DNA of 64,000 nt from Cetorhinus maximus (Eukaryota). The notes beneath the pieces are model-generated. The model was not told the origin of the DNA and did no database searches. It saw only the letters and a list, made by a program, of their open reading frames with translations. The DNA lies in NCBI RefSeq assembly GCF_964194155.1, contig NC_135888.1, positions 122,450,001 through 122,514,000 of the forward strand. The letters run 5' to 3'. Both the position numbers and the translations under genes were made by a program. Of this stretch, positions 16,096-49,731 are shown one piece after another. Each line of letters begins with the position of its first letter. Positions within the stretch are counted from its first letter, which is position 1.

Positions 16096-16099
16096 CCGC

Positions 16100-18598: not shown

Positions 18599-18699
18599 CG
18601 GTAGTGTCTCCACTGCTCACATCCTCACAAACATACTCAAAACCTGACGGCCAATGAGCTGCAGCCTTATTGTCCTGTGTCTCCTCCAATGCTGCCCAC

Positions 18700-24190: not shown

Positions 24191-25595
24191 TTCCACTTAC
24201 AAAAATGCACAAGATCATGAGCAAAACTCAGAAGTCACACCTCTCGCGATGGATTCGTGTACAGAGTTGGCACATCTATTGAAGCTTCATCACAGAAAAT
24301 CGTGTGATCAAACAGCAGGGGAGTACAGCAATTTGTAGCTCCGCCTGTCTCTCAGGCTTCACTTGTATAGGAAACTTCCTGCACTTCTGTGACTATGGAT
24401 TCCAGATATTAGTGATCTGCCAAAGTGACTTGTCTTTTTATCCAGTCTATACAGAAATTGGAGAACATTCTTCAATCGTTGTGTATATTAATGTCAGAGA
24501 ACAGATTTTTAGATACTGAGGGAATCAAGGGATATGGGATAATGCAGGAAAGTTTAGTCGAGGTAGATCAGCCATGATCTTATTGAATAGCTAAGCAAAC
24601 TTGAGAGACTGAATGGTCTACTGCTATTCCTTATATTCATGGACATCTATCCACAAAAGGCTGCATTTTTAAAAAGCAATATTGAGTATCCAATCATTGA
24701 TAAGGGCAAGGATATCTGTAACTGAATGATATAGCTCAAACAATTCACACCTGGGGTATCCCATTGCGTCTGTCTAAGCAATGCATATGTATATACTATG
24801 ATCAGCAAGCAGTAAACAGAATTTCTTAAAAGTACAGACCTGTATTCCTGCCAAGTTTCTAAAATTCCTTCCAGGTCACATTTCCACAGACACCAATAAT
24901 CTTCCTAACCTAAACTAATGTTGGTAGGTTTTGCAACCATGGGTTAATCGAGGGGAATTACTGTGCAGATTGATCCTGTCCTCAACAACTGCATGTCCAA
25001 AAAACATTCACTTTACAGCAATGTAGCCTGATTTTCTTTGCCCCCCTCCCAGTCCATGATCAGTGAAGTGAACTATACCTGTACAATTCCTGTCCTGTCT
25101 ATGCCCAAAATGATTATCACACACAAATTGAATCTGGACCTCTGTACTGTACTTGCCTCTGTATAAAACAAGCCAGTGCATTCACCCGCTAAACCATTCA
25201 GGAAGTTGTGTCTTCCTGAAAAATTAAATTGATGCCAAAGTATTTTAACTTACTCAATGAATAAAAGTAACATCTGGCCGAAGTAGTGATTAAACTTGAA
25301 AGTTCCTAATTGCAAGATCAATTTGGCTCTCACATTGCACCAAAGTATTATCCTCAACATTTATATATTAATCCACACTTGCAACAGAATAATAGCCATT
25401 CTCAATGAAGACTAAACATTTGACTAGAAATAATCGAATAAATAAAAATGGTGGTGCATTTTCTTTAGCAGTCTTTTATTAAAAACATGGGCATTGTTTA
25501 GTTAAATTACAAAAGGTTTAGATATGGCAATGAAAGTAGCTTTCCAAATACAGAATTGCATGGTTCAGACCTGTACCCAGCCTTTCTCTTTTGTA

Positions 25596-25728
25596 TCAAT
25601 CACTTCTGAAATCTTCATAATTTTCAGGTAATGGCATTACTTTCTGACCAGAGGCAGGTATTAGATACAATATTCCAGCATTTGGAACAATATTCCACGA
25701 AAGGGACAAGGAGACATTCTTATTTCCT
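25596..25728 (-). CDS. SPCS3: SPCS3-like exon 5 (GNKNVSLSLSWNIVPNAGILYLIPASGQKVMPLPENYEDFRSD*)
   Basis: Acceptor ccccaag|A, TGA at 25596-25598. LSWNxVPNAGIL motif. Minus-strand AATAAA at 25475-25480. Confidence 0.93.
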
Positions 25729-25904
25729 CTTGGGGATGGAGGTGAGGGAAGAAAGTGGAAAAAAAAACATTAACAGTAGCTGCACATCGTTCAAATCACA
25801 ATCATCTGACAATTCCAGAAACATGGTTTTGACAACACTAGACATTTAGATTCACATTAGGATAAATTGAAAATCCCTCTTTTATTTGCTCTGCGCTGTC
25901 TTTT

Positions 25905-27350
25905 GGGGAACATAGAGAATAGAAGCAGTAGGAAGTAATTCGGCCCTTCGAGCCTGCTGCGCCATTCAATAGGATCATGGCTGATCCTCCATCTCAACGT
26001 CACACTCCCGGTCTCTCCCCATACCCCTTGACACCTTTAGCGTCTAGAAATCTGTCTATTTCTTGATTGGTAAGGGGATCAAAGATTACTGGGAGAAGGC
26101 GGGAGAATGGGGTTGAGAAACTTATCAGCCATGATTGAATGGCGGAGCAGACTTGATGGGCCGAATGGCCTAATTTCTGCTCCTATGTCTTATGGTCTTA
26201 TGGTCTATTTCCTTCTTAATTATATTCAATGACGGCCTCCATAGCCTTCTGTGGTAGAGAATTCCACAGGTTCACTACCCTCTGAGTGAAGAAGTTTGCC
26301 TTCATCTCAGTCCTAAGTGGCCTACCCCACATCCTGAGACAGTGAACCCTTGCACTAGACCCCCCCAGCCAGAGGAAATATCATCCCTGCATCCAGCCCT
26401 GTCAGAATTTCATACCTTTTAATGAGATCCCCTCTCAATCTTCTGAACATCAGTGAATACAGGCCTAGTCCACCCAATCTCTCCTCATACAACAATCCTG
26501 CCACCCCACGAATCAGTCTGGTGAACCTTTGCTGCACTTCCTCTATGGCAAGTATATCCTTTCTTAGGTATGGAGACCAAAACTGCACACAATACTCCAG
26601 GTGTGGTCACCTGCAGTAAGACATCCTTGCTCCTGTACTTAAGTCCTCTCACAATGAAGGCCAACATACCATTTGCCTTCTTAACTGCTTGCTGAACCTG
26701 CATGCTTGCTTTCAGTGACTGGTGTACAAGGACACCCAGGTCCCTTTGTACATCAAATTTTCCCAATCTATAACATTTAAATAATACTCTGCCATTCTGT
26801 TTTTCCTATCGAAGTAGATAACTTCACATTTATCCACATTATACTGCATTTGCCATGTATTTGCCCACTCACTCAACTTGTCCAAGTCCCCTTGAAGCCT
26901 CTTAACATCCTCCTCACCACTCTCACCAAGTTTCGTGTCATCAGCAAACTTGGAAATATTACATCTGGTTCCCTCATCCCAATCATTGATATATATTGGG
27001 AACAACAGGGGACCAAGCACTGACCCCGAGGTGCCCCACTAGTCACCGCCTGTCACTCCAAAAAAGACCCATGTATTCCTACTCTGTTTCTGTCTGCTAA
27101 CCAATTCTCAATCCATGCCACTATATTACCCCCAATCCCCTGTACTTTAATTTTGCACACTAGCCTCTTATGTGGGACTTAATCAAAAGCTTTCTAAAAA
27201 TCCCAATACACCACATCCATGGTTCTCCTTTACCTATTCTTCTAGTTACGTCCTCAAAAAATTCCAGTAGATTTGTCAAACATGATTTCCCTTTCATAAT
27301 TCCACCTTGACTTTGTCTAACCCCATTGATATTTTCTAAGTGTCCTCGTC
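25905..27350 (-). mobile_element. CR1 LINE RT and 3' end, with a nested plus-strand CR1 tail at about 26063-26202
   Basis: LGPLLF.IYIND, KFADDTKL, QFWSPYL motifs. Confidence 0.9.
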
Positions 27351-27479
27351 CTGCGAGTGGTGCTTATAGGTCCATAGCAGTTCTTAAAACAAACTTTTCA
27401 ACAAATAAGATGACAATGATGGAATAGATGGTATTGAGGAATATCAATATAACATCACAAAAATATTAGTGCTATTTCT

Positions 27480-27775
27480 GCACTCTTGCAATTCTGGCCT
27501 CTTGGACAATCCCAGTTTTAATCGCTCCACTATTAGCGGTCATGCCTTCAGCTGCCTATGTTCTAAACTCTGTAGTTTTCTCCCTAAAACTCTCCATCTC
27601 TCTAGCCTCCTTGAAGACACTGCTCAAAACATTTTGACCAAGTTTTTGTTCACCTGTCCTAATATCTCCTTATATGGCTTAGTGTCAAATTATTTTGATA
27701 GCCCTCCTGTGAATCAACTTGTAATGTTTTACTACATTAAAGGCACAGTAAAATGCAAGCAATTGTTGTTTTAGG
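27480..27775 (+). mobile_element. L2 3' end
   Basis: Similar to 6000-6299. Confidence 0.65.
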
Positions 27776-28184
27776 ATCCCAACGTATTTCTACTCCAAAG
27801 ATTCACAATTTCCATATGGTAGTTTCGCAATCTTAAATGAGGCCGAGACTGGAAGCTCCAACTCCCACTAGTATTCCCATCACCTGCAACACTTTCCATT
27901 CATTCACAGACAAAAGACGTAAGCTGAACAGGTAGGTCCACACTTATGAACTTAATCGGCCAGTGCGCTACAGTTACCCTTAAGTGAATTATTTTACACT
28001 GAACGTCCTCTACTTATTCCAATATGCAGAAAACTATAATACTGATAGATCATATTATTCAAGAAAAAAATGCAAATGCAAATATCAGAAATATGAATAA
28101 CGCAGAAGCAAGATAAACTATTAAATAAACAACAACTTTGCAGAAAAGTTGAAACTGTACTTGAAGCCATAGGTACTTAATCAT

Positions 28185-28345
28185 TCACACCTTCCCTGAC
28201 AACACTGTAGGTGTACCTACACCACAGGGACTGCAGCGATTCAAGAAGGCAGCTCACCACCACCTTCTCAAGGGCAATTAGGGATGGGCAATAAATACCG
28301 GCTGAGCCAGTGATGCCCACATCCCATAAATGAATAAAAAAAACA
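28185..28345 (+). mobile_element. 3' tail of the tRNA-headed LINE family
   Basis: TTCAAGAAGGCAGCTCACCACCACCTTCTCAAGGGCAATTAGGGATGGGCAATAAA followed by an A-rich end. Confidence 0.8.
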
Positions 28346-28429
28346 TTGGCTGTGTACTCTCACTGAATGTGTGCTTCCATTTTTGTTCCCTGCTCCCCTC
28401 AATAAAAACATGCATTTGGTGCTTCACAG

Positions 28430-29700
28430 CAATGTAATTAGACAAAAACTGACACCGAGCCAAAGAAGACGTAAGGTAGGGAAGAGAAAGATGACTAAAA
28501 TCTTATTCAAGTTGGCTGATTTCAAGCAGGGTATTAAGAGAGGGGGCTGGAGAGGTTTACGGAGGAATTCCAGGGCTCAGGGTCGAGATGGCTCATGCAA
28601 TGACTCTCAACGTTGAAGGGATTTCAGAGAGCATAAGGGGCTAAAGCTGAAGGAATGCTGAGTTCCCAAAGGGTTGTAGAGTTTGACAATGTTATAGAGT
28701 TAGGAAGGGGTGATGTCATGCAAGGATCTGAACAGAAACGTGAGAATTTTTAATTTGAAATACTGGGAGAATGGGAACCAATGTAGATCAGTGAACATGG
28801 AGTGATGGGTGAAGTGGTCTTAGTTCGGGTTAGGGTACACACAGCAGAGTTTTGGATGAGTTGAAGTTTAGGAAGGATTAAGGATGTGAGGACAGCCAGG
28901 GGACCATTGGATTGGTCGAGTCTGGGGGTGTGGATGAAGGATCTAGCAGCAAATGGGCTGAGGTGGAAACAAGCAGCTTTGAAGATAAAAGTTTGTGCTT
29001 TTGTGGAGGACAGGATGTGGGACCAGAAGCTCACTATGGGTCAAAAAGGATACTGCAGTTGTTAACAATCTGGTTCAATCTGAGACAATAGGTGGGGAGG
29101 GAGATGAAATCAGTGGCAAGAACATGAAATCTTTGGCTTGGACTGAAAGATGATGGCTTTGGTCTTTCCAATGTTTAACTGAAGGAACTTGTGACTCACC
29201 TAGGACTAGATGTCAGACAACATACAAGCAGTGTAGCGGTCAAGGGAAGTAGTGGAGAGGTAATGCTGAGTGGCATCAGCGTACATGTTAGGACCCCAAG
29301 TTTTCAGATGAAGTCACATAAATGAAGAACAGAGATAATGATATAGGAACAAAAGCCATTGCTGGAGATACTCTAGGTTTGGTTGCAGAGGTAAGAGTGG
29401 AACCAAATGAGAACAGTTTTACTGAGTGGAACAACAGAGCGGAGGTGTTGGAGGAAATAACATGGTCAACTAAGTTGAAGGCTGCAGAGAGGTTATAGGA
29501 TAGTGCACCACAGTCATAATCACAGAGGATGTCATTTGTGACTTGGATTAGGGCTGATTCAGTGTGAGAAATCTAATTGTAGAGATTCAAACTTGGAGTT
29601 AAGTGAAAGTCTTGGTTAGTGACATTGCAATTAAAGAATTTGAGAAGAAAGGAACATTGAAATGGGGTGGTAATTTTGAGGAGGGGACAATGGCAGCAAT
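28430..29700 (-). mobile_element. Old L2 LINE
   Basis: RLDQSN..LQLIQNSA motif on the minus strand. Confidence 0.6.
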
Positions 29701-30055
29701 TCTGAAAGGTGTCTGGGAAGAGGCAGGTGTGCCTGACAGGATGTTTCCTCTTGTGGGAGAACTAGGGGTCACTGTTTAAAAATAAGGGGTCGCTCATTTA
29801 AGACAAAGATGAAAAGAAATTTTCTCTCTCAGAGGGTAGTAAGTCTTTGGAACTCCCTTCCTCAAAAGGCAGCGGAAGCAGAGTCTTTGCATGTTTTCAA
29901 GGCAGAGGTAGATAGATGCTCGATGGACAAGGGGGTGAAGGGTTACTGGGGGTAGGCAGGACATTACAGTCAGATCAGCCATGATCTTATTGAATGTCGG
30001 AACAGGCTCGAAGAGCCAAAAGGCATACTCCTGCTCCTTGTTTGTGTGTTCATAA
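29700..30055 (+). mobile_element. CR1 3' end
   Basis: CR1 3' UTR ending ...CTCCTGCTCC. Confidence 0.75.
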
Positions 30056-30960
30056 GAGAGAAAACCATTTAAAATGTTGACTACAACGGGCCAGGGAGGA
30101 AAATTAGATGGAGATAAATTCAAGGGAGCAGGGGATCAGTCACATGGACAAGGTGAGCTCAGAGGGCACAGGATATATAGGAAAGAAAGTAGAGCAAGAG
30201 GCTATTACTTCATATTTCTCTGTATTAAACTGCTTCTGTCACCTGACTTCCCATTTCTCCTGTTTATATTGTCCTGAAGTGTTTTACTGCTCTTCTACTT
30301 CTGTCACCAGCAAATTTGCATACACTCTATTCCGAGGAATGGCACTGACCCTTGGGATACATCACTTCCCTCCTGCAATCTAAGCATTACAGTTTAATCC
30401 CAACCCAATTTTTTCCCTGACATCAACCTACATTCTATCTCAGCTACTATATTTTTCCTATCCTAGAAGCTTGATTTTTTTAAAAACAAGCCTCCCCTGA
30501 GATACCTTATTTAATGGCTTCTCAAAATCCAACATCTTATTTACCCAACTTCAAAAAACTAATAAAGTTTCCAAACGTTACTCAACTTAGGCAAATGCAT
30601 GTTGATTCTCCACGATTATTCCAAGCATTTATAAATGCTCGCTAATTTGACTTTGAATTATGAATTTTAAGAGTTTGTCCATGAGGGTCATTCAACGAAC
30701 TGATCTACAATTACCAGCTTATTCTTCCTGAACAACAATTTTAGAATAACTTCCAAACACTAGAGCTTATAGCTTAGAATATAAAAAAGTTTGATTTTAT
30801 CGGAGATCATAATTGATGCAAACTGTCAACCCTCCAATACATTGAGACCTATAGCAGCAAAATGTAGTTAACAAACGAGAAAGGTTGTGTAGTTCACCAA
30901 CAATCTTTTCGTTTTCTCTTCCCATTTTCTTAAGAATAATATTTTTTTTTTTTTACTCAC

Positions 30961-31076
30961 TTCAGACCATTTCCATCATCCAAAAATAAATATTTGGGAC
31001 TCATATCATGAAGATTAAGTCTAGGATTCTTTCCTCGCTGAAGGATTTTATCCCATAGGACCACTTGATTCAATGC
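30961..31076 (-). CDS. SPCS3: SPCS3-like exon 4 ([39 protein letters not shown])
   Basis: Acceptor gtag|GCA, donor AA|gtgagt, 116 bp. Family motifs NQVVLWDKI and DDGNGL. Confidence 0.95.
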
Positions 31077-31368
31077 CTACATTGTAAGTTAACAGAACAA
31101 AGATAGAAGAAATTAATAAAAATAGGTGCAGGAAGGAATTTTAAGACTGTACTATACCGTCAAGTAAATATTACTATAAGGCACAGGACAGAGCAATAAC
31201 GTATCACTGTGCATTACTACAAAAGAATCAGGTTACTGAAAAAATGGAACATCATACTCAAACAAATAATGATTAACGGTAAGAATACATAAACAGCACA
31301 TCCAAATAGATGAATTTTAGGCAGTCTGCACAGCTTCAATGCATCACATATAGACAAATTCAACTTAC

Positions 31369-31445
31369 ATTCTTCTCTGTAGCATATTCCACTGCTAGAT
31401 ACAGGAAAAGCTGCTTAACATTCCAATTGAATACTGGCCCCAGAT
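31369..31445 (-). CDS. SPCS3: SPCS3-like exon 3 (DLGPVFNWNVKQLFLYLAVEYATEKN)
   Basis: AC acceptor preceded by U12 branch site TTCCTTTAAC. Donor AAT|gtaagt, 77 bp. WNVKQLFLYL motif. Confidence 0.93.
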
Positions 31446-32926
31446 GTAGATAAATAGTTAAAGGAAATATGGGTTCTGGATAAATTCATTTAATAGAAGT
31501 CCTCAACAATAAGTGATAAAATGGCTATTTGCCAAATAAGAATCATATAAAATGACCTCATAATAGCTTCCTTTCTAGGCTGTGCTCTGTTTTTTCTTTT
31601 CTTGGGCCTATCAAAACAGCTGCTCAGGTGCACAACAGCAGCCAAGGATGACTGTTTCTGCAATCTGCTCTCAAAGAAGACAGAATAATTAGAAAAATGA
31701 GATAACAAAAAAGAAATCAGAGAATTTGAAAAAGCTAATAGAATGTAGTACCTTAGTTCAAATCCAGCCCAAAGTGAGAAGGTGAACCCCACTTCTGTCT
31801 GCTGACTTTAAGGGCATTGCATGAAGCCAATTTGGACATCCTAAAAACTGGCCATTATTCAGCATTAAATACCACTAAGTTTGCATTAACAATCCAAACA
31901 GAATGGCTGGAGAGTGAAAGGAAAAACATTACACTGGAACACTGAGGGGTGGCCCTCAAGATTGGGCTGAGGCGTGCTATATAGATAGTGTAGGCAGCTT
32001 CACTTACATCTAACTGTTATAATGCAGAAACGTTATTTCTGTCAGCGAGTGTTAAATCTATGGAACAGGCTTCATAGGGACATGGTGGAAAAGATCATAT
32101 TGAATGAATCAATACTATCAAATTCAAATGAGATACACTTCTTTCAGAAAATATTTTGTGATACAGTATGAGTAATATATGACATCTGATAAATATAACA
32201 TGCTTGGGAAGAACAGGTGACTTTGGATCTAAGATTCCCAAAGATCTCCACAGCCTGGGGTTGTTTCACTTCATAGAAACAAAGTGCACAGCAGAAGGCC
32301 ATTTGGTCCATTGCACCTGTGCCAAATCTTTGAAAGAGCTATTCAATTAACCCCTTTCCCCTGTTCTTTTGCATTAGTTCTGCAATTTTCTCTTTTTCAT
32401 GCATATATCTAATTCCTTTGTGATTGTGCTATTGGATCTGCTTCCACCAGTTTTATCAGGTCACTGCACCAGTTTTATTCTAGATCCTAACAACTTAGTG
32501 CAGAACAAAATGTCTCCTCATTTCTCCTCTGAATACCTTTGACCATTGTCTTACATGTTCTGGTTGCTGACCCTCCTGTCAGTGGAAACAGTACAATGTT
32601 CTTTTTTGGTCTGGCTAGCCTCAAGTATTTTTCTGTTTTCAGATTACATAGCGAATGCTGGGCAGGCAGGTATTGATGCTTCATGCGTTGCAAGTTGTGT
32701 GTGGAATTCAAAGGACCTGCTGTTGTTGAAATTTGTAAAATAAATGCCATTATTAAATAATACCATCATTATCTTTGAACCATGTGACTACCGAGGTGGT
32801 AGAAGACAACCGAGATGGACCTTTGTCTTTTTTCATTGAGCAATTCCTACATTCCTATACCTAACCTGGGATTCCCAGTCCTCAGCTTGATGAACAGAAC
32901 TGTGAATCAAGTACGAAAAAGGATAT
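31446..32926 (-). other. U12-type (minor spliceosome) AT-AC intron 2 of the SPCS3-like gene
   Basis: 5' splice site ATATCCTTT from 32926, branch site TTCCTTTAAC at 31466-31457, terminal AC at 31447-31446. Joining these ends keeps the frame (GTT G|AT CTG). Confidence 0.92.
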
Positions 32927-32991
32927 CAACATAAACGCTAAAATTTACAGATCCTAAATCATACTTTCCAGTGTAGTCTTCATATTTTTTT
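32927..32991 (-). CDS. SPCS3: SPCS3-like exon 2 (KKYEDYTGKYDLGSVNFSVYV)
   Basis: Acceptor atttcag|A, U12 donor G|atatcctt, 65 bp. Aligns to the recalled human [24 protein letters not shown] with a 3-aa deletion. Confidence 0.88.
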
Positions 32992-34199
32992 CTGAAATAG
33001 AAACAAAACATGTACTCCAAAACACAGGCAACACTCCTTCTCTTCCTCTCCCTGATACTACGCTCTTATTTTCCCTACATTTTAAGCAGATGAAGCTTTA
33101 CCTTATCATTTCACATACTTGAAGCTATTTTTTTTAATACTGTGAAAAATATACAATTCACAAAATCCTATTTTATGGGTGAAAAAGTTAGTTGATCCCT
33201 ACTTAGGCGATGTTCCAGTATACACCCATTACAATTTAAATACAGATAAGGCAACAGGAATTTTTTTGAAAAGCAATAAATTATTCAGCCATTTTGCAGA
33301 GTTTTCCAGAGTGAAGAGGGTTTAAGATTTCGGCTGGTATTGGACATCTTTGCTTCTGCAGTAAAGAGAAATATAAACAACTTTTGAGAAGTTTGCACCA
33401 CATACTGGTGCCTGCCACAGAAGCTTTCATACAATAATAGCCGGGTCATTTTCACTGCTGTGAAATACTGCCAGCATAGACAATGTGAATACAAGGCAGC
33501 AGTTGGCTGGGAGGGATTGATTAGGCAGTAATTCAATTAATAAGTTAAGATATTATAAATCGAGATAGCAAAGCCCACATAATACCTGGCTTAAACTGAC
33601 ACCTGGTGCTGTAATTCCGGGCCCAACAATCAAATCCATGGGGTGGCATCGCTCATGCATGATGACGTTCACACTGAAAGAGTAACAATTGTGACGTCAT
33701 TACTGCAGGGATTATCAGGGAATTTTCTGCCACACAGTATGTAAAAGTAATGGGTGTATACTTAAAGCAAATTAATAAGAATGTTACCATTATTTCTGCA
33801 CATTATTCTAATAGCAAATTGGGGAAAAACAGGAATAAACTATTTGGTACACCCAAACTACCATAAATTTCTTTTTCTGTTCCCATTCATGATCATCCAA
33901 AATGACACACAAACTGTCTTATGGCAACCAGTTTTGAAGCAATCTTTTTTCATAATGTTTGAATTATGGACAAATTGAGAAGAATATACTGCAACTAAGA
34001 GAATTAAAGGATCAAGTGACAACGAGGATCACAGCCTGTAAATATGAATAGGAAACAAGAATACTGATGAATAAAACATAATACCAAGACATTAATTCAT
34101 TGAAGGAGGTAGGTTCAGGGGAGATACTTACAAGTATACCCATTGTAGATGGGGAATAAAACTCATTTTTAAACTTCTTACTTTGTACTATTCCCCTGC

Positions 34200-34986
34200 A
34201 TCATCAACGGACCAAAGAGGGACGTGTTTGGTTAATATCAACCACAAGCTCCACACCAATTTGCACCAATACCACTTGTGGTATTCGCCACTAACAGGAT
34301 GCTGCTGTCAAGGCAAAAATATGTTCTGCCTATCACACAAATGAGTAATGTGAATTTCAGTGTCAGTGTGATGCTAGGTATGTAGGCTGTACATTTCAAA
34401 GACTAGTGGATTGTATCAAACAGCATGTCCCAGCCGCTGTTTGCAATGGGCAGTGTACAGACTGCACCCAACCAGCTCGTGCTTGCAAAACTCAAAGAGT
34501 GTCCAACATTAGATGTGATTCTGCGATTGGATAGCACTTGCTAAATAATTCTTAGTGTGCTAATAATTATGCTGACAACCAATTTAAGATTGTCAGTCGG
34601 GCTCGTAATGTGGCACATTTGCGTGTCCTGGAAGCTACATTAATACACAGGGCCCTGTTCTTTGCAGACAGAAAAAACATGTACATACATTGCGCCTATT
34701 TCAGCTAACTCATTCCTCAAGGCAATGCCTTTGCCAATCAGGGTCAAGCTGTCTGGTTTAAATTTCAAACGATGCTTGGCAGCTATCTGTCAGTCACCAT
34801 CAGTGCTGCATTCTCCATGGCAATGCCACTTGCCAACCAATCAGCACTCTCTTCACATACAGTATAAATTGTTGTTTTCCACCTTATACTGGTATTCTTG
34901 TGAGTGTCCTGATGAATGCAAGCTAAAAAGCTTAGACCTGTCTCTTTTTTTCAGCAATACCCAAGTTCTGTATTACCAAACAACTA
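34200..34986 (+). mobile_element. Penelope-like element 3' fragment with pseudo-LTR and hammerhead motif
   Basis: Collinear with 35460-36250. GTC-CTGATGA...AAAAGCTTAGAC at 34906-34938. Confidence 0.8.
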
Positions 34987-35082
34987 AATGACAAATTAAG
35001 GAATGGGATAGTAATAAAAGGAACTGTAGTGCGTTAAGGGATAGACAATAATGGCAGAACAACAGATTGCCAAGTAGTGCCA

Positions 35083-36250
35083 AGGTATGTGGATGATATG
35101 TTTGCTATATTTAAATCCGCAGCTGCATGTAATAATTTCCTTACATGTCTTAATGGGCTCCATCCTGCGCTCAAATTCACCGATGAAATGGAGCAGTCAA
35201 ATAAACTCCCTTTCCTGACATACTAGTTGAGAAATCTGCCAGGGGGGTTCTTTACCACAGTCTACTGCAAGCCTACTTTCACTGGTCAATATACACATTG
35301 GGATTCTAACAGTTCCACACACTATAAGATTGGCCTTATAAGCAATCTTGTAATTAGGGCCCGAGCCATTTGCTCACCATGCAAGCTTGATGCTGAAATA
35401 GGGCGCATCCTGCAGAATAACGGCTACCCTGATCAGATAATTTTGCGCTGCATATCTCATGAACGGGCCTAAGGTTATCACTTTCGGCCCTGAAAAGTGC
35501 CCAATCTACCTCAGGTTACCCTGGAAGGGCAAGGTACCTCAAAAATTTGAGCAACAGGGGAATTTAGCTGTTTCACGCTGCTACTATGCAGTAGCAACAC
35601 GAGTGGCATTCACCACTAACAGGAGGCTGCCGTCAAGCCAAAAATACGTTCTACCTATCACACAAATGAGGAATGTGGTATATGAATTTCGGCGCCAGTA
35701 TGATGCTAGGTATGTAGGCCGTACATCCCAAAGACTGCAAGTCATATCAACCAGTCTGTGCTTGCAAAACTCAAAACACAGTGTCCAACATTAGATGTGA
35801 CTCCGCGATTGGACAACATTTGCTAAATAACCCTCAGTGTGCTAAGAATTACGCTCACAACCAATTTAAGATTGTCAGTCGGGTTTGCAGTGTGGCACAT
35901 TTGCGTGTACTATAAGCTATATATATATATTAATACACAGGCCTGGTTCCTTGCAGACAGAAGGAGCATGTACACACATTATGCCTGTTTCAGCTAAACA
36001 AAATAAGCGACAGCCATTTGCTGTCAAGATGCCTGGTTCAAATTTCAAATGATGCTTGGTAATTAACTGTCAGTCACCATCAACTGGTGTACTCTCCATG
36101 ACAATGCCTCTACCAGAGTCCACTTGCCAACCAATTAGCATTCTCTTCTCATACAGTATAAATTTGTTGTCTCCCTTAGGACATTTCGCAAGAATGCAAA
36201 TCCAAGTGCAAGAGGAAAATCTTTAACAAAAATCTCTTTTTTCCAGCAAG
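35083..36250 (+). mobile_element. Penelope-like element (RT C-terminus plus GIY-YIG endonuclease)
   Basis: RYVDDMF RT motif, TVYCKPTFTGQY, LQNNGYP. VVYEF...YVGRTSQRL is the GIY-YIG motif. Confidence 0.88.
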
Positions 36251-36379
36251 ACTGCCAAGAATAATATTAATCTTTATTATAATGAAAAACTAAGATGACA
36301 TTAAGCAAAACTGATGCAGTGGGGTAGTATTATTAAATAAAAAATCCACACAGTCTGAAGCAATAGGTGAGTATCCTCA

Positions 36380-36910
36380 ACGCCAGCTCAGCTTCAAATC
36401 CTATGTTGCTCCAACAGCAAAGCCACCTAGTCAAACATCACTAGCCCAGATTTCCACTGTAGTTAAAACTCTCATTTGCACCTTTTTTACCTCAAAGTTT
36501 GATGTTTTTACCCCAACCTACAAAAATCTAACTCATCTAGAGTTCTGCAGGCTCCATCTTTTCCGATGCAATTTCATCCACATGTTTCATCTCTACTGGC
36601 TCCCTGCACCTCAGCACAAATTTCAAAATCTTCACACTCTGTCATGGCCTCACTCTACGTTCTATTACACATCCTCTTCTCTTCCAACATTTGGTCACTT
36701 GGCACCTCCCCCTTTCTGTTGCTCTACCATGGGTGCCAGAGCCTTCAGGCACCATACCCCTGGACTTTGCATATCATGTCTCAAACCTTCATTACCTTGC
36801 CCGAACACTCTTTATTCTCAAAAGGTACCTTCTGTGCTTCAGATCATTTCTCATTTCAACCTTTCCTTCTGCTTAATGTAAACTATCATAAATAAATGTA
36901 ACTTATTGCT
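36380..36910 (+). mobile_element. Old L2 3' fragment
   Basis: Degenerate L.WLP...FK motif and tail. Confidence 0.5.
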
Positions 36911-37309
36911 CCAAATTGTATCAAATTAAATATAATTAGAATTAATAAAAAGTTATGTGACCGTTTCTACAATCTGTCCTCAGAATAGTATTATAAATTG
37001 TGACATATTTGAAAGCCAGTATGCAATTGTAATTGGGATATTAAAAGAAAGTAACAAACCAATAACATTGTCAAAGTTATAATGGAGACATATTAAAGAT
37101 AATCAAGAGTTAATATTTATAAGCTATGACCCAGTCTCCACCACCACCACCACCCATTTGCAGATAGGAGAGTATTCCAAGTTATCGGACAAGATAAATT
37201 GAAGACACAATAAATAAGAGAAAATAATAAGCTAAATGAGCAACTGCTCAAAGAAGCATTACAGGCCTTTTGGTCTAACTGATCTATGTTAGTATATAGA
37301 GGAGGTAGA

Positions 37310-37770
37310 TTTTTTTTTTTAAATCGGGTGTTGAGGGCTATGAGGAGCTGGCACGAAAGAGGAGTTGAGGCCTGGGGCAGATCAGCCATGATCTTATTGA
37401 ATGACGGGGAAGGCTTGAGGGGCCGAATGGCCTACACCTGCTCCTACTTCTTATGTTCTCCCATCCTACTTCATCTGACTGCCAGATTCTTGTTCCTTTC
37501 TCCTTCGTGTACTTACCTAGCTTCCCCTTAAAGGCATCTATTCCACGCACCTCATCTACTTCATGCAAATAGCAAGTTCCACATTCTAACCATTCTTCGG
37601 TGTTATTCCTGAGTTCTTTACTGAAATTATATTTATGGCCTCTAGTTTTGGACTCCCCCACAAACAGAACCATCTTCCGCCTAGCCTTAATTTTGGAGAC
37701 CTACCTGTTTTAGGCCACCCCTCTCAGCCTTCTCTTTCCAGAGAACAAAGCCCCCAGCCTTTCCTGACAA
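37310..37770. mobile_element. Two CR1 3' fragments in opposite orientation
   Basis: Plus-strand tail 37310-37460. Minus-strand RRLRG / ESKTRGH fragment 37460-37770. Confidence 0.65.
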
Positions 37771-37923
37771 CTGCCAATTATTGCATTAGGGATATAACTT
37801 AAGAGCCCAAGGCCCAGTTTCCACTGTCGGGGGCAGTCGCACCGAGGAAACGAGGTAATGGTTTGTGGAGAGCTCGCCCTCGGCCCCCGGCCCCCTCCTC
37901 CCCCCGCCCCGGTCCACACTCAC

Positions 37924-38066
37924 AGAGAGATGCCGCTCACACTGATGCTGACCGGTACCCGGGACTGCCGGAACACTGTACTCAGGAGCACCAGCACGGT
38001 CAGCGCCGCCATCACCATCACCGTGAAGGCGAACAGCGAGTTGAACCGCGAGATCAGGTTGTTCAT
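37924..38066 (-). CDS. SPCS3: SPCS3-like exon 1 (MNNLISRFNSLFAFTVMVMAALTVLVLLSTVFRQSRVPVSISVSGISL), signal-anchor TM; full protein 177 aa
   Basis: In a CpG island. ATG at 38066, donor CT|gtgagt, 143 bp. Resembles the recalled human MNTVLSRANSLFAFSLSVMAALT. Confidence 0.93.
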
Positions 38067-38399
38067 CTTCCCGGGCGCCCGGCTCCAGGAGCAAGGTGTA
38101 CAAACAGACCCAGCGCACAAAACACTCCGGTCCAACCGCTGCAACTCGGCATAAAGGTTCCCAGTCCCCTTTTTACCCCCCTCCCACACCTCCCCCTCTC
38201 TCTCTCTCTCTCTCTATCTCTGTGCAGCTTTGTCTTGCACCTGCTCTATCTCAAGACTCCCCAACCGCACATCTGCTTTTTAAACCTTCCCCTCAAGACT
38301 CAGATTTCCAAATAGAATAAGCTAATGAGTTTCGATAATTCTTTCGAGTTATCAACAGTCACAGATTGCAACTCTGTCGAGTACCATCACAGTTCTTGG

Positions 38400-41758: not shown

Positions 41759-41919
41759 TTAATCTTTGTTTCCACAGTCAGTAAGGTCAGATGGTAGATT
41801 TTTAGTTTCAGCAATGAGGCGTTTCACTCCGACCATCCACTGTCCAACTTCATTCACATGGTCAACCATCAAAGATCTGTGGATTTCATCAGCAGAATCC
41901 CAATTGCAGTGCTCCATTT
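41759..41919 (-). CDS. SRA1: SRA1 exon 5 ([53 protein letters not shown])
   Basis: Acceptor ttgacag|AA, TAA at 41759-41761. [23 protein letters not shown] is diagnostic of SRAP. Confidence 0.95.
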
Positions 41920-41959
41920 CTGTCAACAGACAAACATATACAACATATTCTTAGGAATA

Positions 41960-42117
41960 GTCGTTTGGTAGTACAGAATTTGAGTATTGCTGAAAAAAGA
42001 GACCTGTCTAAACTTTCTGTCTTGCACTCACCAGGATATGCCCCCTTATATTGGTATTCTTGCAAGTGTCCTGATGAGTGCAAGACGAAAAGTTTAGACG
42101 TGTCTTTTTTCAGCAAT
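41960..42117. mobile_element. Inverted pair of Penelope pseudo-LTR fragments with hammerhead motifs
   Basis: 41986-42036 is the reverse complement of 42069-42117. Both match 34900-34986. TTCTTAG flanks both sides. Confidence 0.8.
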
Positions 42118-42729
42118 TTTCTTAGAACTTAAAATATATCATTAACCAAACACTACTTACAATACACAGATATCCTAGTAAAAGGCAGGGAAAGGGAGAT
42201 GGGAGGTAAAAGGAGAAAACAGTGTGCTCTGAGGAAAGAATTCTGAATTAGATCCCATACATTAGGAGTACCCAAGCTTTTTGTCTTTGTAATGCATGCA
42301 AAAGAGCCTCACAGGCCAGATATGAATGCTCCCATTAATTTGCATTTCACTATCTATTGGTGCTAACAGATCTTGGTATTCTGATTTGGGGCTTGGCCAT
42401 CAATTAGATAACAGCATTAAGAACAAGTCTTTTCAAACAGAACAAGCCAGCAATAAAAAAAGACGGTACATAAAATAGACACTGTGCTGCTTGCATTCCA
42501 TGGCCCAAACTGCACAGGTTCAAAGGCCATAAACACCCATGGGCTGTACGTTAGACACTCCTGTATTACATTACAGAGCACTTAATCAATATGAAAAGAT
42601 GACCAAAAGAAACATTTTTATCATTACAGAGTTTCATAAACAGTTCTCATTTTACAATGGTTTTGCTTGATAAATAGATTCCTAGGTTTGAATAAATAAA
42701 TCATTTTCCAGCCTCCCTCATTTGACCTA

Positions 42730-44990
42730 AAAACATAGGAAATAGCAGAAGGCCATTCTGCCCCTCAAGGCTGCTCTGCCATTCAACTAGACATTGGTTG
42801 ATCTTCTACCAAAACGCCATTTTCCCACATTATCTCCCCTAATATCATTAATATCTAGAAATCTATAGATCTATCTTGAACATTTGTAGATTCCAAAGAT
42901 TCATCACCCTCTGAGTGAAATTCCTCATCTGTCCTAAATTACTTCTTATTCTGAGACTATGTACTATGTTCTAGGTTGCCTCCACAGCCAGGGGGAACAT
43001 CCTCCCTGCATCTATCCTGTCAAGCCCTATAAGAACTTTGTTTGCTTCAATGAGACCACCTCTCATTCTTCAAAACTCTGGAGAATACAGGCCCAGTCTC
43101 CTCAATCTCTCCTCATTGGACAATCCTGCCATCTCAAGGATCGGTCTGGTGAACCTCCATTGCACCCCTTCTATGGAAAGTACATCCTTCCTTAGGTAAG
43201 GAAACCAAAACTGTACATAATACTCCAGATGCAGTATCACCAAGGCTCTGCACAACTGCAGCAAGACTTCTTTTCTCCTGTGCTCAAATCATCTTGCAAT
43301 AAAGGCCAACTAACCATTTGCCTTCCTAATTGCTTGCTGCACCTGCATGCTAACTTTCAGTAACCTCTGAACAAGGACATCCAGGCCCTTTGAACATAAA
43401 CACTTCCCAACGTCTCACCATTTATGAAATGCTCTGCATTTCTGTTTTTTCTTACCAAAGTGGATAACTTCACCTTTTTCCACATTATATTCCACCTGCC
43501 ATGTTCTTGCCCACTCACTTAGCCTTGCAGTCTCTTTGCAGACCTCCTCAAACTCTCATTCTCTAGTTTTGTGTCATCATCAAACTTGGAACATTACATT
43601 TGGTCCCCACAACCAAATTATTGATATAGATTGTGAATAGCTGGGTCCCAAGCACTCTTCCTTGCGATACGCCACTAGTCACAGCCTACCAACCCGAGAA
43701 TGACCTGTTTATTCCTATTCTCAATCCTTGTTAGTATATTACCCATAATCCCATGTGTTCTAACTTTCCTTACTAACCTGTGGGGGCCTTATCGAAAGTT
43801 TTCTGAAAATCCAAATACACCACATTCACTGGTTCCTCCTCATCAATTCTGCTGGTCATATCCTCAAAAAACTCTGACAGGTTTGTCAAACATAAATGCC
43901 CTTTCATAAATCCATGCCCAATCCTACCATTATTTTCCAAGTACCCAGATATCACAGCTTTTATAATAGGTTTTCCCTACTACTGATGTCAGACTAGCAG
44001 GTCTGTTTTCTCTCTCCTTCCTTTCTTAAGTGGGGTTACATTTGTTACATTCCAATCTGCAGGAACTATTCCAGAATCTATATAATTTTGGAAGATGACC
44101 AGCAATACATCCAGTTTCTCTACTGCCACCTATTTCAACGCTCTGGGATGTAGATCATCAGGTCCAGGGGATTTATCAACTTCCAGTCCCATTAATTTCC
44201 CCAGTATTACTTTTTCACTAATACTAATTTCTTTCAATTCCTCATTCTTGCTAGTCCCTTGGCTCTCTATTATTCTTTGGAGGTTTTCTGCATCTTCCTT
44301 CGTGAAGACAGACAGAAAATATTTGTTTAGTTTCGCTGCCATTTCGTTATTCCCCATTATATATTCTCCTGTCTCTGCTTATAGCCGGCCCACATTTGTC
44401 TTTGCTAATCTTTTCCTCTTTACACACCTATGAGAAGCTTTTAGTCTGTTTTTATACTTCTCACTAGTTTATTTTGGTATTCTACATTTTCTTTCTTTCA
44501 GTTTCTTGGTCCTCCTTTGCCAAATTCTAAAATGCTCCCAATTTTCAGGCTTACTACTTTTTTTGGCAACTTTATAAGCCTCTTCCTTTGCTCAAATACA
44601 ATCTTTAACTTCTCGTTAGCCATGGTCGGATCACATTTCCTACTGGGTTTTTTGTGCTTAAAAGGAATGCAAATTTGTTGTAAACCATATATTAATTCTT
44701 TAAATGCTAGCCATTGTCTGTCTACTGTTATATCTTTTAATGTAGTTGCCCAATCTACCACAGCCAATTTGCCCCTCATACCTTCATAATTTCCTTTGTT
44801 TTGATTTAAGCCCCTAGTTTCGGATTGAATCACATCACTTTCAAACTTAATATAAAATTCTATCATATTATGGTCACTCTTCCCTAGAGGCTCCTTGAGA
44901 ATGAAATTATTAATTAGCCCTTTCTCATTGTACAATACCAGATCTAAAATAGCCCATTCTCTAGTTGGTTCCTCAACATAACGTTCTAGG
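42730..44990 (-). mobile_element. CR1 LINE ORF2 (end of APE to 3' end)
   Basis: EPLGKSDHNMIEF, DKSPGPDDLHPR, VYLDFQKTFDK, HLEYYVQFW motifs. Confidence 0.92.
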
Positions 44991-45021
44991 AAACAAACCT
45001 TTTATATTTCTAACCCTTTCC

Positions 45022-45119
45022 AGTTCTGAAGAAAGGTCATTGACCTGAAATATTAACTTGCTTCTCTCTCCATAAATGCTGCCTTATCTTCTGAGTATTT
45101 CCAGTATTTTGTTTTCATT
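45022..45119 (+). mobile_element. Short Penelope-derived element with a minimal hammerhead motif
   Basis: AGTT-CTGAAGA-A-AGGTC ATT GACCT-GAAA-TATT-AACT. Related copies at about 52105, 53310, 55317, 55830, 58140 and 63398. Confidence 0.7.
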
Positions 45120-45349
45120 GGGGTTTTAAAAAACATTCAAATTAGCATGAATCATGTCCTACTTAATACGTCTCAAAGAGTAAAGCACAATTCCACCTTT
45201 CTTAATTCTGTTTCCCATTTTAAAAATTATTTTTCTCTCCACTTTTCAGCTTTCCGAAATACATAACTATCTGGAATGGAAATAAGACACAGGCCATGCT
45301 CTCTTTCAATGGCACTATAGCCAGTTGCTCAGAGATGCATGGAACACTC

Positions 45350-46275
45350 CTTTTATTCATTCATGGGATGTGGGTGACGCTGGCTAGGCCAGCATTTATT
45401 TCCCATCTCTATAAGGTGGTGGTGAGCTGCCTTCTTGAACCACTGCAGTCCATGTGGTGTAGGTACACCCATAGTGTTGTTAGGGAGGGAGTTCCAGGAT
45501 TTTGACCCAGTGACAGTGAAGGAACGGCGAGATAGTTCTAGATCAGGATGGTGGGTGGCTTGGAGGGGAACTTCTAGGTGGTTTTCCGATGCATCTGCTG
45601 CCTTTGTCCTTCTAGATGGTAGCAGTTGTGGGTTTGGAAGACGCTGCCTAAGGAGCCTTGGTGAGTTCCTGCAGTGCACCTTGTAGGTGGTCCACACTGC
45701 TGCCACTGTGCATCGGTGGTGGGAGTAGATGGGGTGCCAATCAAACAGGCTTTGTCCTGAATAGCATCAAGCTTCTTGAGTGTTGTTGGGGCTGCACTCA
45801 TCTGAGCAAGAGTATTCCATCACACTACTGACTTGTGTTTTGTCAGGAGGTGAGCTACTCGAATAGGATTCCTAGCCTCTGACCTGCTCTTGTAGCCACA
45901 GTATTTATATGGCTAGTCCAGTTCAGTTTCTGGTCAATGGCAACCCCAAGGATGTTGATGGCAGGGGGTTCAGTGATGCTAATGCCATTAAATATCAAGG
46001 GGTGATGGTTAGATTCTCTCTTGTTGGAGATGGTCATTGCCTGGCATGATTGTTACTTGTCAGCTCAAGTCTGTCCAGGTCTTGCTGCATTTGGACATGG
46101 ACTGCATCAGTACCTGAGGCGTCGCAAATAGTGAACATTGTGCAATCATCAGCGAACATCCCCACTTCTGACCATATGATGGAAGGAAGGTCATTGATGA
46201 AGCAACTGAAGATGGTTGGGCCTAGGACACTACCCTGAGGAACTCCTGCAGTGATGTCCTAGAACTGAGGTGAAC
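45350..46275 (-). mobile_element. tRNA-headed LINE family, 3' part (RT GSVLGP/FADD region to tail)
   Basis: Minus strand encodes VPQGSVLGP...MFADDC and ILGVAIDQKLNW. Shared tail. Confidence 0.88.
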
Positions 46276-46374
46276 TAGCACTGAATGAATTACTTTCTGA
46301 TTTTACCCTCTTGCAGCAAGGGATAAAGTATCTGTTCTCCAATCTGTGCCTTTTGCAATAGATAATTTAGGTTT

Positions 46375-46630
46375 GAGTTGAGGAGAAATTTCTTCACTCA
46401 AAGGGTTGTGAATCTTTGGAATTCTCTACCCCACAGGGTTGTGGAAGCTCCATCATTGAATCTATTTAAGGCTGAGATAGACAGATTTTTTGGTCCCTCA
46501 GGGAATCAAAGGATATGGGAAGCACGTAGTCAAGCGGAGTTGAAGCTAAAGATCAGCCACGGTTGTACTGAATGGGGCAGCAGGTTTGACAGGCCATATG
46601 GTCTACTCCTGCTCCAATTTCATATGTTCT
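46375..46630 (+). mobile_element. CR1 3' end
   Basis: RRNFFTQRVVNLWNSLP motif. Confidence 0.85.
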
Positions 46631-46846
46631 TATTCAGAATTTTATAAGTATGCCCTGCTAACTAGAGCCTTTGCAGAAAAATATACAACTCTGTTCACTC
46701 ATATTTTTGCACTTGAGTGTTACATATCTTTTGCACTTATGGAAACACAACTTGCATTTATATAGCATTTTATCACATCTCTCAGCACATCCCAAAGTGC
46801 CTCATATACAAGAACCTGGACAAGATACAAGACACGAGTTGATTAC

Positions 46847-46955
46847 CTAGTGTGAGCAGTTGCATCCTTTTTCGCACTGGTACAGATAGCTTTCCCGATT
46901 GCCACATATCCTGGAGTATTATTAGCCTTCTACCAATATCATCACAAACTTGTTT
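46847..46955 (-). CDS. SRA1: SRA1 exon 4 ([36 protein letters not shown])
   Basis: Acceptor gtctag|AAA, donor G|gtaatc, 109 bp. Matches the recalled human KQVCDDISRRL...GKLSIPVKKRM. Confidence 0.94.
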
Positions 46956-47544
46956 CTAGACAGGAAGTTTGAAAACAAAATTTTCAATTATTAGCTGTTA
47001 CAAAAGTTTTAATGTTAAGTGGCTGTAAGTATTCAGAATAATACTTCTTGACACTTAACAGCTGCCATTAAAATATCACTATTTAAAATGAAATCTTAAA
47101 GTGTTATCAGACTATTGTTTGCACTGTTATATCAATTTATTTAAGATCCATCTGCAACACCCTTTAATTCCTACACATAAGCAGTCAAACTATTGACAGC
47201 ATCTTTTGCTATGGAACAAATTCACACTTTGACGATATGAAGATACTTTGAAGATATCATTGACTCAGTCATATAATTTTCTCTTTCTGGGGAAATGCTT
47301 GGATTTCACTCTGTGTCTCCTCCTCAATTTATAGCCTGAAATTGGGAAATGTGAAAATGGGCAATTGTGGCTGTGATCCAATTTCCCAATATTCTATAAT
47401 ACATCATATTGGTATAATCAGCTTTTTACCAAATTGTTTCACCTATACCAAATATCAATGCATAGCTGTCATTTACTTTCACTTTCAAAGGAAGAATAGA
47501 GCTACTACCTGAAAGATAAGCGTATATTGCTGCTTTCCTGCATG

Positions 47545-47860
47545 TCAGTTTTACTGTTATCTTTGAGTCAGAAAGTTGTAGATTCAAGCTTCAGACCAGG
47601 ACTTGAACCCACAATCAAGGCTGATATTTCAGTGCAATACTGAGGATATGCTTTATTTCTGGTGTTAAACGAATGCCCCACTTTCCTGTTCCAATGGTTC
47701 AATTGAATTAGAGACTCTACATTGTTACTCAGTGGGCAGCTGGTTCTCCTGAGGTTTTGGTCAATATTCTTCCGTCAGCCAATATGACAAAAAAAAGGAA
47801 CTTGTCATTCATCTCACTGCTGTTTGCAAGGCCTTGCTGTGCATATAAGGGTTGCCACGT
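47545..47860 (+). mobile_element. DeuSINE-like SINE interrupted by the CR1 at 47860; its tail resumes at about 48845-48920
   Basis: Similarity to 23776-24190. TATAAAAATGCAAGCTTTCT follows the CR1. Confidence 0.55.
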
Positions 47861-47861
47861 T

Positions 47862-49513: not shown

Positions 49514-49731
49514 CTTAACAGTTTTCCTACAAGCCTCCAGTGCTTTATTCAATGGAACTAAAACATCTTCCACATTTACTTCACAATCGGACATAACTGT
49601 AGCACTCTGCACTGGTTTACAACTGTTGGACTGACTAGATTGCTTTGGAGGTGGTGGCGGTGGCATCTTCTCATGGGCTACGGGAGGGCCCGATGGTATA
49701 ATTGCAGGAGGAATTTCAGCTGGTCCACAAA
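49514..49731 (-). CDS. SRA1: SRA1 exon 3, proline-rich linker ending EDVLVPLNKALEACRKTVK
   Basis: Acceptor ttcccatag|TT, donor AAG|gtaagc, 218 bp. Phases fit. Confidence 0.9.

What the first reader, a model, noticed from the sequence alone, without database searches (positions are those of the whole stretch)
25596..38066. Intact but strongly diverged second SPCS3 gene: probable ohnologue and possible alternative signal peptidase complex subunit
Seen: five exons (143, 65, 77, 116 and 133 bp coding) give an open 177-aa protein with a CpG-island start and a poly(A) signal. It is neither a retrocopy nor an obvious pseudogene. Against the human sequence from memory it is only about 55-60% identical, although SPCS3 is normally highly conserved in vertebrates. 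The TM helix is remodelled (VLVLLSTVF versus FGCFITTAF), exon 2 lacks 3 aa and gains an NFS sequon, and the NV[T/S] sequon is kept. Established: human SPCS3 is single-copy on 4q34, while HMGXB3, SRA1 and NUDCD2 are on 5q31-34, and 4q/5q are paralogous from whole-genome duplication. Inference: a retained ohnologue lost in mammals, possibly forming a variant complex in the way SEC11A and SEC11C do.
Basis: partly seen in the sequence, partly recalled or inferred. Interest (0 to 1): 0.7.

Follow-up and report, generated by a model that had tools for sequence, protein, structure and literature searches.

The report
Second SPCS3 gene kept by sharks
Sharks and rays carry a second, intact and spliced copy of SPCS3, the scaffold subunit of the enzyme that clips signal peptides off secreted proteins; it is likely a leftover of an early vertebrate genome doubling and is predicted to pair with the same cutting subunit, an ordinary kind of retained duplicate that databases already list without comment.

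Summary
Confirmed. Five exons (143/65/77/116/133 bp, minus strand) give a 177-aa SPC22/23 protein. Intron 2 is a minor-spliceosome AT-AC intron, as in the canonical SPCS3, which lies on another chromosome (56% identical). Orthologues occur in 17 named shark, ray and skate species; none was seen in bony vertebrates or chimaera among the proteins listed. Contigs from several public runs are spliced at the predicted joints. Both copies sit tail-to-tail with a VEGF-C-type gene, followed by TENM3 or TENM2 in the same order, so a whole-genome-duplication origin is likely; the tree agrees but does not reject a younger origin (AU p 0.24). The copy evolves about 5.6 times faster, yet keeps 25 of 28 predicted SEC11-contact residues. 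Changes fall on the membrane helix, one loop and the C-terminus. Best reading: an alternative scaffold for the one SEC11 gene found in this genome. Altered substrate choice is untested. RefSeq already lists it as 'SPCS3-like'; my searches found no paper on it; this scan noted it twice before in other genomes. Real, modestly interesting.

The parts
37924..38066 (-). SPCS3-like coding exon 1 (143 bp): start codon, N-terminal and membrane helix
   Evidence: a contig of run X2 covers 37924-38136 and stops at the donor
37801..38200 (.). small CpG island over the first exon
   Evidence: GC 0.61-0.66, CpG o/e 0.66-0.84
33586..33673 (-). alternative 88-bp exon of database isoform X2; replaces exons 2 and 3 in frame and so avoids the AT-AC intron
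   Evidence: P0001 and P0005 mapped; edges read from the flanking AG and GT; no spliced contig seen for it
32927..32991 (-). coding exon 2 (65 bp; 74 in the canonical copy): 3-aa loop loss and new NFS sequon
   Evidence: joint to exon 3 in 3 of 4 runs
31446..32926 (-). intron 2, U12-type AT-AC (1481 bp)
   Evidence: donor ATATCCTT, branch-like TTCCTTTAAC, acceptor AC; a 1481-base skip in runs X2, X6, X9
31369..31445 (-). coding exon 3 (77 bp)
30961..31076 (-). coding exon 4 (116 bp): holds the strand predicted to pair with SEC11
25596..25728 (-). coding exon 5 (133 bp with stop): kept N138 sequon, diverged C-terminus
   Evidence: contigs of 4 of 4 runs stop exactly at 25728
25475..25480 (-). 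AATAAA poly(A) signal
   Evidence: contigs reach 25463-25508, compatible but contigs cannot show an end
41777..49690 (-). neighbour upstream: SRA1 coding exons
   Evidence: PF07304
   Evidence: PF00505 / PF09011
   Evidence: PF04969

Best explanation
This is an intact, spliced second SPCS3 (SPC22/23) gene of sharks and rays, likely an ohnologue from the second vertebrate genome doubling, whose protein is predicted to dock on the catalytic SEC11 subunit in place of the canonical SPC22/23 and would so build an alternative signal peptidase complex. Shown: gene structure, a canonical copy elsewhere, orthologues across elasmobranchs, spliced transcripts, duplicated gene order, faster evolution. Inferred: the 2R timing, loss in bony vertebrates, SEC11 binding. 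Mechanism I think most likely: the luminal beta-sandwich still holds and positions SEC11, while the changed membrane helix, shortened loop and extra glycan site are tolerated or tune the complex in some tissues. My odds: ohnologue 0.85; binds SEC11 in a working complex 0.7; both 0.6.
For: Origin: same exon phases and the same AT-AC intron in both copies. C2 has SPCS3(+) 21.7 Mb, VEGF-C-type(-) 22.0, teneurin(+) 27.7-28.2, XTBD gene 28.8; C10 has SPCS3-like(-) 122.48, VEGF-C-type(+) 122.36, teneurin(-) 118.6-119.3, XTBD gene 106.9: same order for four families, same relative orientation for the first three. The C10 teneurin scores best with solved TENM2 (1099 bits against 978 for TENM3), the C2 one with TENM3 (1129 against 973), so the block split before sharks and bony vertebrates did. 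Tree of 48 rows: the copy forms its own clade (100/100) outside a clade of all jawed-vertebrate canonical SPCS3 (97/96); the best tree found makes the two sisters. At two columns it keeps the state of all 12 outgroup rows where jawed-vertebrate SPCS3 changed. Function: open frame in 17 named species; 68 of 89 animal-wide conserved columns kept; fold model pLDDT 83.8, only match with E under 0.001 is 7P2P chain B. Complex with SEC11A: score 0.64, best of 3 controls 0.00; the mark was reached by 51 of 78 solved and 2 of 108 mismatched pairs (eukaryotes 39 of 65 and 2 of 126); runs agree in at least 93% of contacts, partner pLDDT at least 75. 25 of 28 predicted contact residues are identical in the two copies, against 56 of 114 other luminal residues (Fisher p 8.5e-5). 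Spliced joints exon 2-3 and 3-4 in 3 of 4 runs from three studies.
Against: The AU test does not reject a duplication inside cartilaginous fishes (6.74 log-likelihood units lower, p 0.24); the protein is short and no amphioxus row was on hand. Only 3 of 5 neighbour families tested have a member on both chromosomes; the SAP30 and PLP families had none on C10. The complex pass may come from memory of the solved human complex, used a bird SEC11A as stand-in (50 of 51 and 37 of 40 identical to two shark exons), and cannot tell which family member binds. Among the 14 copies compared, mean conservation of the contact residues (0.84) is no higher than of other luminal residues (0.83), and Q81 varies. 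21 of 89 animal-wide conserved columns are changed or variable. Contacts with SPC12 and SPC25 were not modelled. No run is on record as RNA and no tissue is known. Rodent Arxes show that an SPCS3 duplicate can take another role (PMC3082915, abstract and section 16).
Confidence: 0.6

Rival explanations
1. Same ancient origin, but the protein has left the signal peptidase complex and does another job in the ER membrane, as reported for rodent Arxes.
For: Fixed changes at residues otherwise invariant in animals: C26 (34 of 34) to V (14 of 14), P158 (34 of 34) lost in 14 of 14, D69 (34 of 34) to S in 13 of 14, charged loop deleted in 14 of 14. Arxes are needed for adipogenesis while Spcs3 is not (PMC3082915, abstract).
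Against: 25 of 28 predicted SEC11-contact residues kept against 49% elsewhere in the lumen; complex model passes, 0.64 against best control 0.00 (may be from memory).
Confidence: 0.15
2. Ohnologue from the first, not the second, genome doubling.
For: In the free tree the copy joins the hagfish rows with no support (47/12), and the base of the vertebrate clade is open.
Against: The tree with the copy as sister of jawed-vertebrate SPCS3 is 0.79 units better. The skate paper's table pairs the chicken-13-like chromosome (LER11) as 2-beta with LER1 as 2-alpha (PMC10115646, SI Table 3); that C10 matches LER11 is my inference from TENM2, whose chicken position is recalled.
Confidence: 0.1
3. A younger duplication within cartilaginous fishes, followed by fast evolution and a move to this site.
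For: Found only in elasmobranchs; AU test p 0.24 does not reject it.
Against: It sits at the matching position of an older duplicated block, next to a second VEGF-C-type gene and on the TENM2 chromosome; keeps two outgroup states that all jawed-vertebrate canonical copies lost.
Confidence: 0.08
4. A redundant copy that is drifting towards loss.
For: 5.6 times more amino-acid change than the canonical copy in 10 matched species, fastest in rays and skates (63-64% identity); three ray records start at a later Met.
Against: Open frames in 17 named species from both sharks and batoids; dN 0.36 against a near-saturated dS of about 2.4 between the two copies; U12 intron still spliced.
Confidence: 0.07

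Closest known systems
SPCS3 / SPC22/23, non-catalytic subunit of the ER signal peptidase complex (Pfam PF04573; PDB 7P2P chain B, 9RJB chain D)
   Same: Pfam match, five-exon structure with the AT-AC intron, one N-terminal membrane helix plus luminal beta-sandwich, N138 (N141) sequon in 17 of 17 copies, predicted SEC11-pairing strand.
   Different: 56-60% identity to jawed-vertebrate SPCS3; 3-aa loop loss; membrane helix more hydrophobic (Kyte-Doolittle mean 2.02-2.49 in 12 copies against 1.72-2.10 in 34 others) and without the Gly-Cys pair; extra N64 sequon in 13 of 17 copies; C-terminal 23 residues only 6 identical.
SEC11A / SEC11C paralogous complexes SPC-A and SPC-C (bioRxiv 10.1101/2020.11.11.378711; passages and Results part 2)
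   Same: A duplicated subunit that could give two mutually exclusive complexes.
   Different: There the catalytic subunit is doubled (about 80% identical); here the scaffold is doubled (56%), and four searches found one SEC11 locus in this genome.
Arxes1 / Arxes2 of rodents (PMC3082915; abstract and section 16)
   Same: Expressed, ER-type SPCS3 duplicates that diverged from the parent.
   Different: Arxes are intronless retrocopies, 82% identical and young; this gene keeps all four introns, is 56% identical and lies in an ancient duplicated block.
Ohnologues kept in cartilaginous fishes and lost in bony fishes (PMC10115646; passages and supplement file 2)
   Same: Same pattern: the paper counts 19 such genes and reports more loss and faster change on beta segments.
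   Different: 'spcs3' gave 0 hits in the 3 supplementary files searched (1 file unreadable, 1 cut); the list of the 19 genes was not in the table I could read, so I cannot say whether SPCS3 is among them.

Membership tests
SPC22/23 (SPCS3) family | SPC22 domain (PF04573) over the whole protein | tested here: met
   (E 1e-63 to human SPC22/23)
SPC22/23 (SPCS3) family | single N-terminal membrane helix and luminal beta-sandwich | tested here: met
   model H4-32 then strands, pLDDT 83.8; Foldseek E 1e-15 to 7P2P_B, TM 0.64, rmsd 9.1
SPC22/23 (SPCS3) family | N-glycosylation sequon at N141 | tested here: met
   N138 sequon in 17 of 17 copies; occupancy not testable
SPC22/23 (SPCS3) family | binds SEC11 through the luminal domain | tested here: inconclusive
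   model passes, 0.64 against best control 0.00, but a like complex is solved and a bird SEC11A stood in; 25 of 28 contacts kept
SPC22/23 (SPCS3) family | supports signal peptide cleavage in a four-subunit complex | not testable with these tools
   needs reconstitution or rescue
vertebrate ohnologue | paralogue in a collinear duplicated block on another chromosome | tested here: met
   SPCS3, VEGF-C-type, teneurin, XTBD in the same order on C2 and C10; 3 of 5 neighbour families tested are on both
vertebrate ohnologue | duplication older than the shark-bony split | tested here: inconclusive
   best tree says yes (97/96), AU test does not reject the alternative (p 0.24); flanking teneurins are TENM3 and TENM2
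vertebrate ohnologue | single copy in invertebrate chordates | not tested
   no amphioxus sequence was among the proteins returned
retrocopy (Arxes type) | no introns | tested here: not met
   four introns at the canonical positions
pseudogene | broken frame or lost splicing | tested here: not met
   open 177-aa frame; spliced contigs

The most novel reading that the evidence does not exclude
Sharks and rays build two signal peptidase complexes by swapping the scaffold instead of the blade: one SEC11 gene, two SPC22/23 genes, the mirror image of mammals. The second scaffold's more hydrophobic, Gly-Cys-free membrane helix reshapes the thinned lipid window and shifts which signal-peptide lengths are cut in some tissues, giving a natural experiment on the 'membrane ruler' model.
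Probability: 0.2. Interest if true: 0.7.

Novelty: new member of a known kind. Interest (0 to 1): 0.4.

Why it matters
SPC22/23 is required for signal peptidase activity and is treated as single-copy; the human structure paper says most eukaryotes have three accessory subunits and one SEC11, with only SEC11 doubled (10.1101/2020.11.11.378711, passages). A second scaffold kept across sharks and rays offers a ready-made variant to ask what the SPC22/23 membrane helix does for the lipid window, which a 2026 preprint links to species-specific cleavage rules (10.64898/2026.09.20.752496, abstract only). The same block also bears on an open point: Rauniyar et al. call the origin of the second vegfc of gars 'unknown and perhaps unknowable' for lack of chromosomal context (PMC10328876, passages); in this shark the context is preserved and points to genome duplication for the shark's second VEGF-C-type gene. 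The class itself, an ohnologue kept by sharks, is ordinary.

Tried and rejected
Only SPCS3 in the genome: rejected. A GT-AG reading of exon 2 near 33300: rejected, the exon lies at 32991-32927 and ends at an AT-AC intron. Three more hits on C1 (221.60-221.62 Mb) as further paralogues: rejected, they are 158-base intronless fragments of the canonical copy, 92-94% identical, two with a stop, in a tandem repeat. Orthologues outside elasmobranchs: none among 120 listed of 511 hits or 120 listed of 812 hits with a profile of the copy (eleven full-length elasmobranch rows at 304-362 bits, next 250); in a tree of 206 of the 207 proteins then held, the clade had 21 rows, 20 named elasmobranch and 1 unnamed member of the skate cluster. 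This covers annotated proteins only, not genomes. No RNA holder is on record among 13 runs listed; run X7 showed no spliced joint. Contig depth cannot rank the two copies and tissues are not given. Cross-species dN/dS could not be computed (no DNA of orthologues); of 5 exon-4 differences listed, 4 change the residue, too few to use. A Bombesin search meant to find the SEC11C neighbourhood gave only noise. SAP30-family searches found one gene on C2 and none on C10. Catshark tissue tables could not be read (PMC11979771 supplement too large) and may bear on tissue expression. Whale-shark supplements: 0 hits, 12 of 24 files not searched. Literature searches that found no paper on this gene; on SEC11 evolution; on a shark vegfc paralogue: (listings only, except the papers named). 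Nine of 57 rows were left out of the careful tree (poor models, likely retrocopies, near-duplicates). In the rate comparison one canonical record served two species (Carcharodon, Heterodontus), and the Amblyraja record was assumed to stand for Leucoraja.
Full report
1. The observation. The gene is on the minus strand with coding exons at 38066-37924, 32991-32927, 31445-31369, 31076-30961 and 25728-25596 (143, 65, 77, 116, 133 bp). They give an open frame of 177 residues, identical to database protein P0002, labelled 'SPCS3-like isoform X1' of a shark. Introns 1, 3 and 4 are GT-AG. Intron 2 is AT-AC with a U12-type donor and branch-like sequence. Human SPCS3 is reported as a minor-spliceosome target (PMC3958305, passages). 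A small CpG island covers exon 1 and one AATAAA lies 115 bases behind the stop.

2. A canonical copy exists. A Pfam search of the genome hit two loci. The second, G000:C2:21710601-21746065, has exons of 143, 74, 77, 116 and 133 bp, the same AT-AC intron and 180 residues, identical to database protein P0125. The two copies share 99 of 177 residues; dN is 0.36 and dS about 2.4, close to saturation. The canonical copy is 79-84% identical to three bony-vertebrate rows, the window copy 56-60%. Three further hits on C1 are short intronless fragments of the canonical copy.

3. Distribution. Orthologues were returned for 17 named species of sharks, sawfish, rays and skates. A profile of 15 of them ranked eleven full-length elasmobranch rows at 304-362 bits and then dropped to 250 bits, where canonical SPCS3 begins (120 of 812 hits listed). 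In a tree of 206 of the 207 proteins then held, the clade had 21 rows and no bony-vertebrate, chimaera or cyclostome row. This is absence from listed annotated proteins, not from genomes.

4. Expression. Thirteen runs hold part of the last exon; none is on record as RNA. Contigs of 4 of 4 runs laid stop exactly at the exon 5 acceptor, 25728. For X2 the same 384-base record lies on exon 4 with letters 2-116 and on exon 5 with letters 117-384; X6 shows the same. Joints for exon 2-3 (1481 bases skipped, the AT-AC intron) and exon 3-4 appear in 3 of 4 runs from three studies. The exon 1-2 joint is implied by a contig that ends at 37924 but was not listed. The same three runs carry loose ends that match the canonical copy's exon 4-5 joint, so both copies are expressed in those samples. 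No retrocopy of the window gene was found in this genome that could mimic the joints. Tissue and level are unknown.

5. Origin. On C2 the order is SPCS3 (+, 21.7 Mb), a VEGF-C-type gene (-, 22.0), a teneurin (+, 27.7-28.2) and an XTBD-domain gene (+, 28.8). On C10, read backwards, it is the window gene (-, 122.48), a VEGF-C-type gene (+, 122.36), a teneurin (-, 118.6-119.3) and an XTBD-domain gene (+, 106.9). The first three keep their relative orientation; the fourth does not. The C10 growth-factor exon shares 44 of 61 residues with the C2 one and 41 with the one on C16, and further cysteine-repeat exons follow; the VEGF-C label rests on recalled motifs. The C10 teneurin is TENM2 and the C2 one TENM3 by best match to solved structures. 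Both genes exist in bony vertebrates, so the block is older than the shark-bony split. Two of five neighbour families (SAP30, PLP) had no C10 member. In the careful tree (48 rows; 9 of 57 left out) the copy is one clade (100/100, stem 0.51) outside the clade of all jawed-vertebrate canonical SPCS3 (97/96, stem 0.16). Holding the two as sisters gave a tree 0.79 units better than the free search. Holding the copy with chondrichthyan SPCS3 cost 6.74 units but was not rejected, p 0.24. The skate genome paper reports 19 ohnologues kept in cartilaginous and lost in bony fishes, and faster change on beta segments (PMC10115646, passages). This gene fits that pattern.

6. What changed. In 10 matched species the copy differs from the window's by 24.2% on average, the canonical by 4.3%. 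Of 89 columns conserved across animals it keeps 68. Fixed changes include C26 to V, loss of the three-residue charged loop, D69 to S, loss of P158, G162 to A and F170 to L (canonical numbering). The membrane helix is more hydrophobic in nearly all copies. The N138 sequon is kept in 17 of 17 rows, the new N64 sequon in 13 of 17. The fold model has one long helix and a beta-sandwich and matches only human SPC22/23 below E 0.001.

7. How it most likely works. In the human complex SPC22/23 embraces the SEC11 catalytic core in the lumen, and its membrane helix joins SPC12 on one side of a thinned lipid window (10.1101/2020.11.11.378711). The signal peptide touches only SEC11A directly (PMC13385932, passages). 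A model of the window protein with a bird SEC11A scored 0.64 against a best control of 0.00; the mark was reached by 51 of 78 solved and 2 of 108 mismatched pairs, runs agreed in at least 93% of contacts, partner pLDDT at least 75. Because the human complex is solved, the pass may show likeness only. More telling, 25 of the 28 modelled contact residues are identical in the two shark copies against 56 of 114 other luminal residues, though within the copy's own clade those residues are on average no better conserved than the rest. I therefore read it as an alternative scaffold that still holds SEC11. Any effect on substrate choice would have to be indirect, through the window or through SPC12, and is untested. 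Four searches found one SEC11 locus, on C31. Two proteins I take from recall to be SEC11C-type are 82-88% identical to the query exons, well above the 43-53% matches the same search found for SPCS3. So a second SEC11 is probably absent from this assembly, but these searches are lossy and one assembly is not a lineage.

8. Novelty and score. The protein is in RefSeq under an automatic name. Searches found no paper on it; supplements that I could not read may list it. This scan reported the same gene twice before in other genomes; I saw those notes after forming my reading, and they are not independent support. Retained shark ohnologues are a known and, in this scan, frequent class. What lifts this one a little is that it doubles an essential housekeeping subunit thought to be single, possibly beside a single SEC11, and that its block speaks to the origin of a second VEGF-C. 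Verdict: real; new member of a known kind; interest 0.4.

Noticed in passing
G000:C10:122358110-122379916 (L016-L018), about 95-120 kb downstream of the window gene: A second VEGF-C-type gene, tail-to-tail with the SPCS3-like gene just as the canonical pair on C2. The preserved context suggests genome duplication as its origin, a point left open for gars in PMC10328876. Three exon-like frames seen are open; the whole gene was not built.
   Followed up: partly
G000:C31:20890930-20899899 (L029, L037): The only SEC11 locus found in four searches; SEC11A-like. No second SEC11 gene was seen in this assembly.
   Followed up: partly
G000:C1:221602848-221618649 (L032, L033): Three tandem 158-base intronless 5' fragments of canonical SPCS3 mRNA, 92-94% identical, inside a repeat of about 7.8 kb.
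   Followed up: yes
G000:C1:72647185-72647391 (L040): An intronless SPCS1 reading frame that looks intact, probably a retrocopy; the C6 hit looks like the last exon of the parent gene and the C8 hit is broken.
   Followed up: no
G000:C2:21724251-21726355: Database model P0132 of the canonical SPCS3 misplaces the AT-AC junction by a few residues compared with the genome-derived reading and with P0125.
   Followed up: yes
window 33586-33673: Alternative in-frame exon in database isoform X2 of two shark species; it replaces exons 2 and 3 and bypasses the minor intron. A skate isoform (P0108) also skips around that intron.
   Followed up: partly
window 15900-18650: Pyrimidine-rich low-complexity tract (GC skew to -0.9) with a 200-base assembly gap at 18149-18348.
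   Followed up: no
window 34200-36140: Two similar copies of a repeat about 1.3 kb apart inside intron 1 (contig joints).
   Followed up: no
G000:C10:122587866-122588255 (L050:3866-4255): Leucyl-tRNA synthetase domain exon (PF22947) about 74 kb beyond the window's right end.
   Followed up: no
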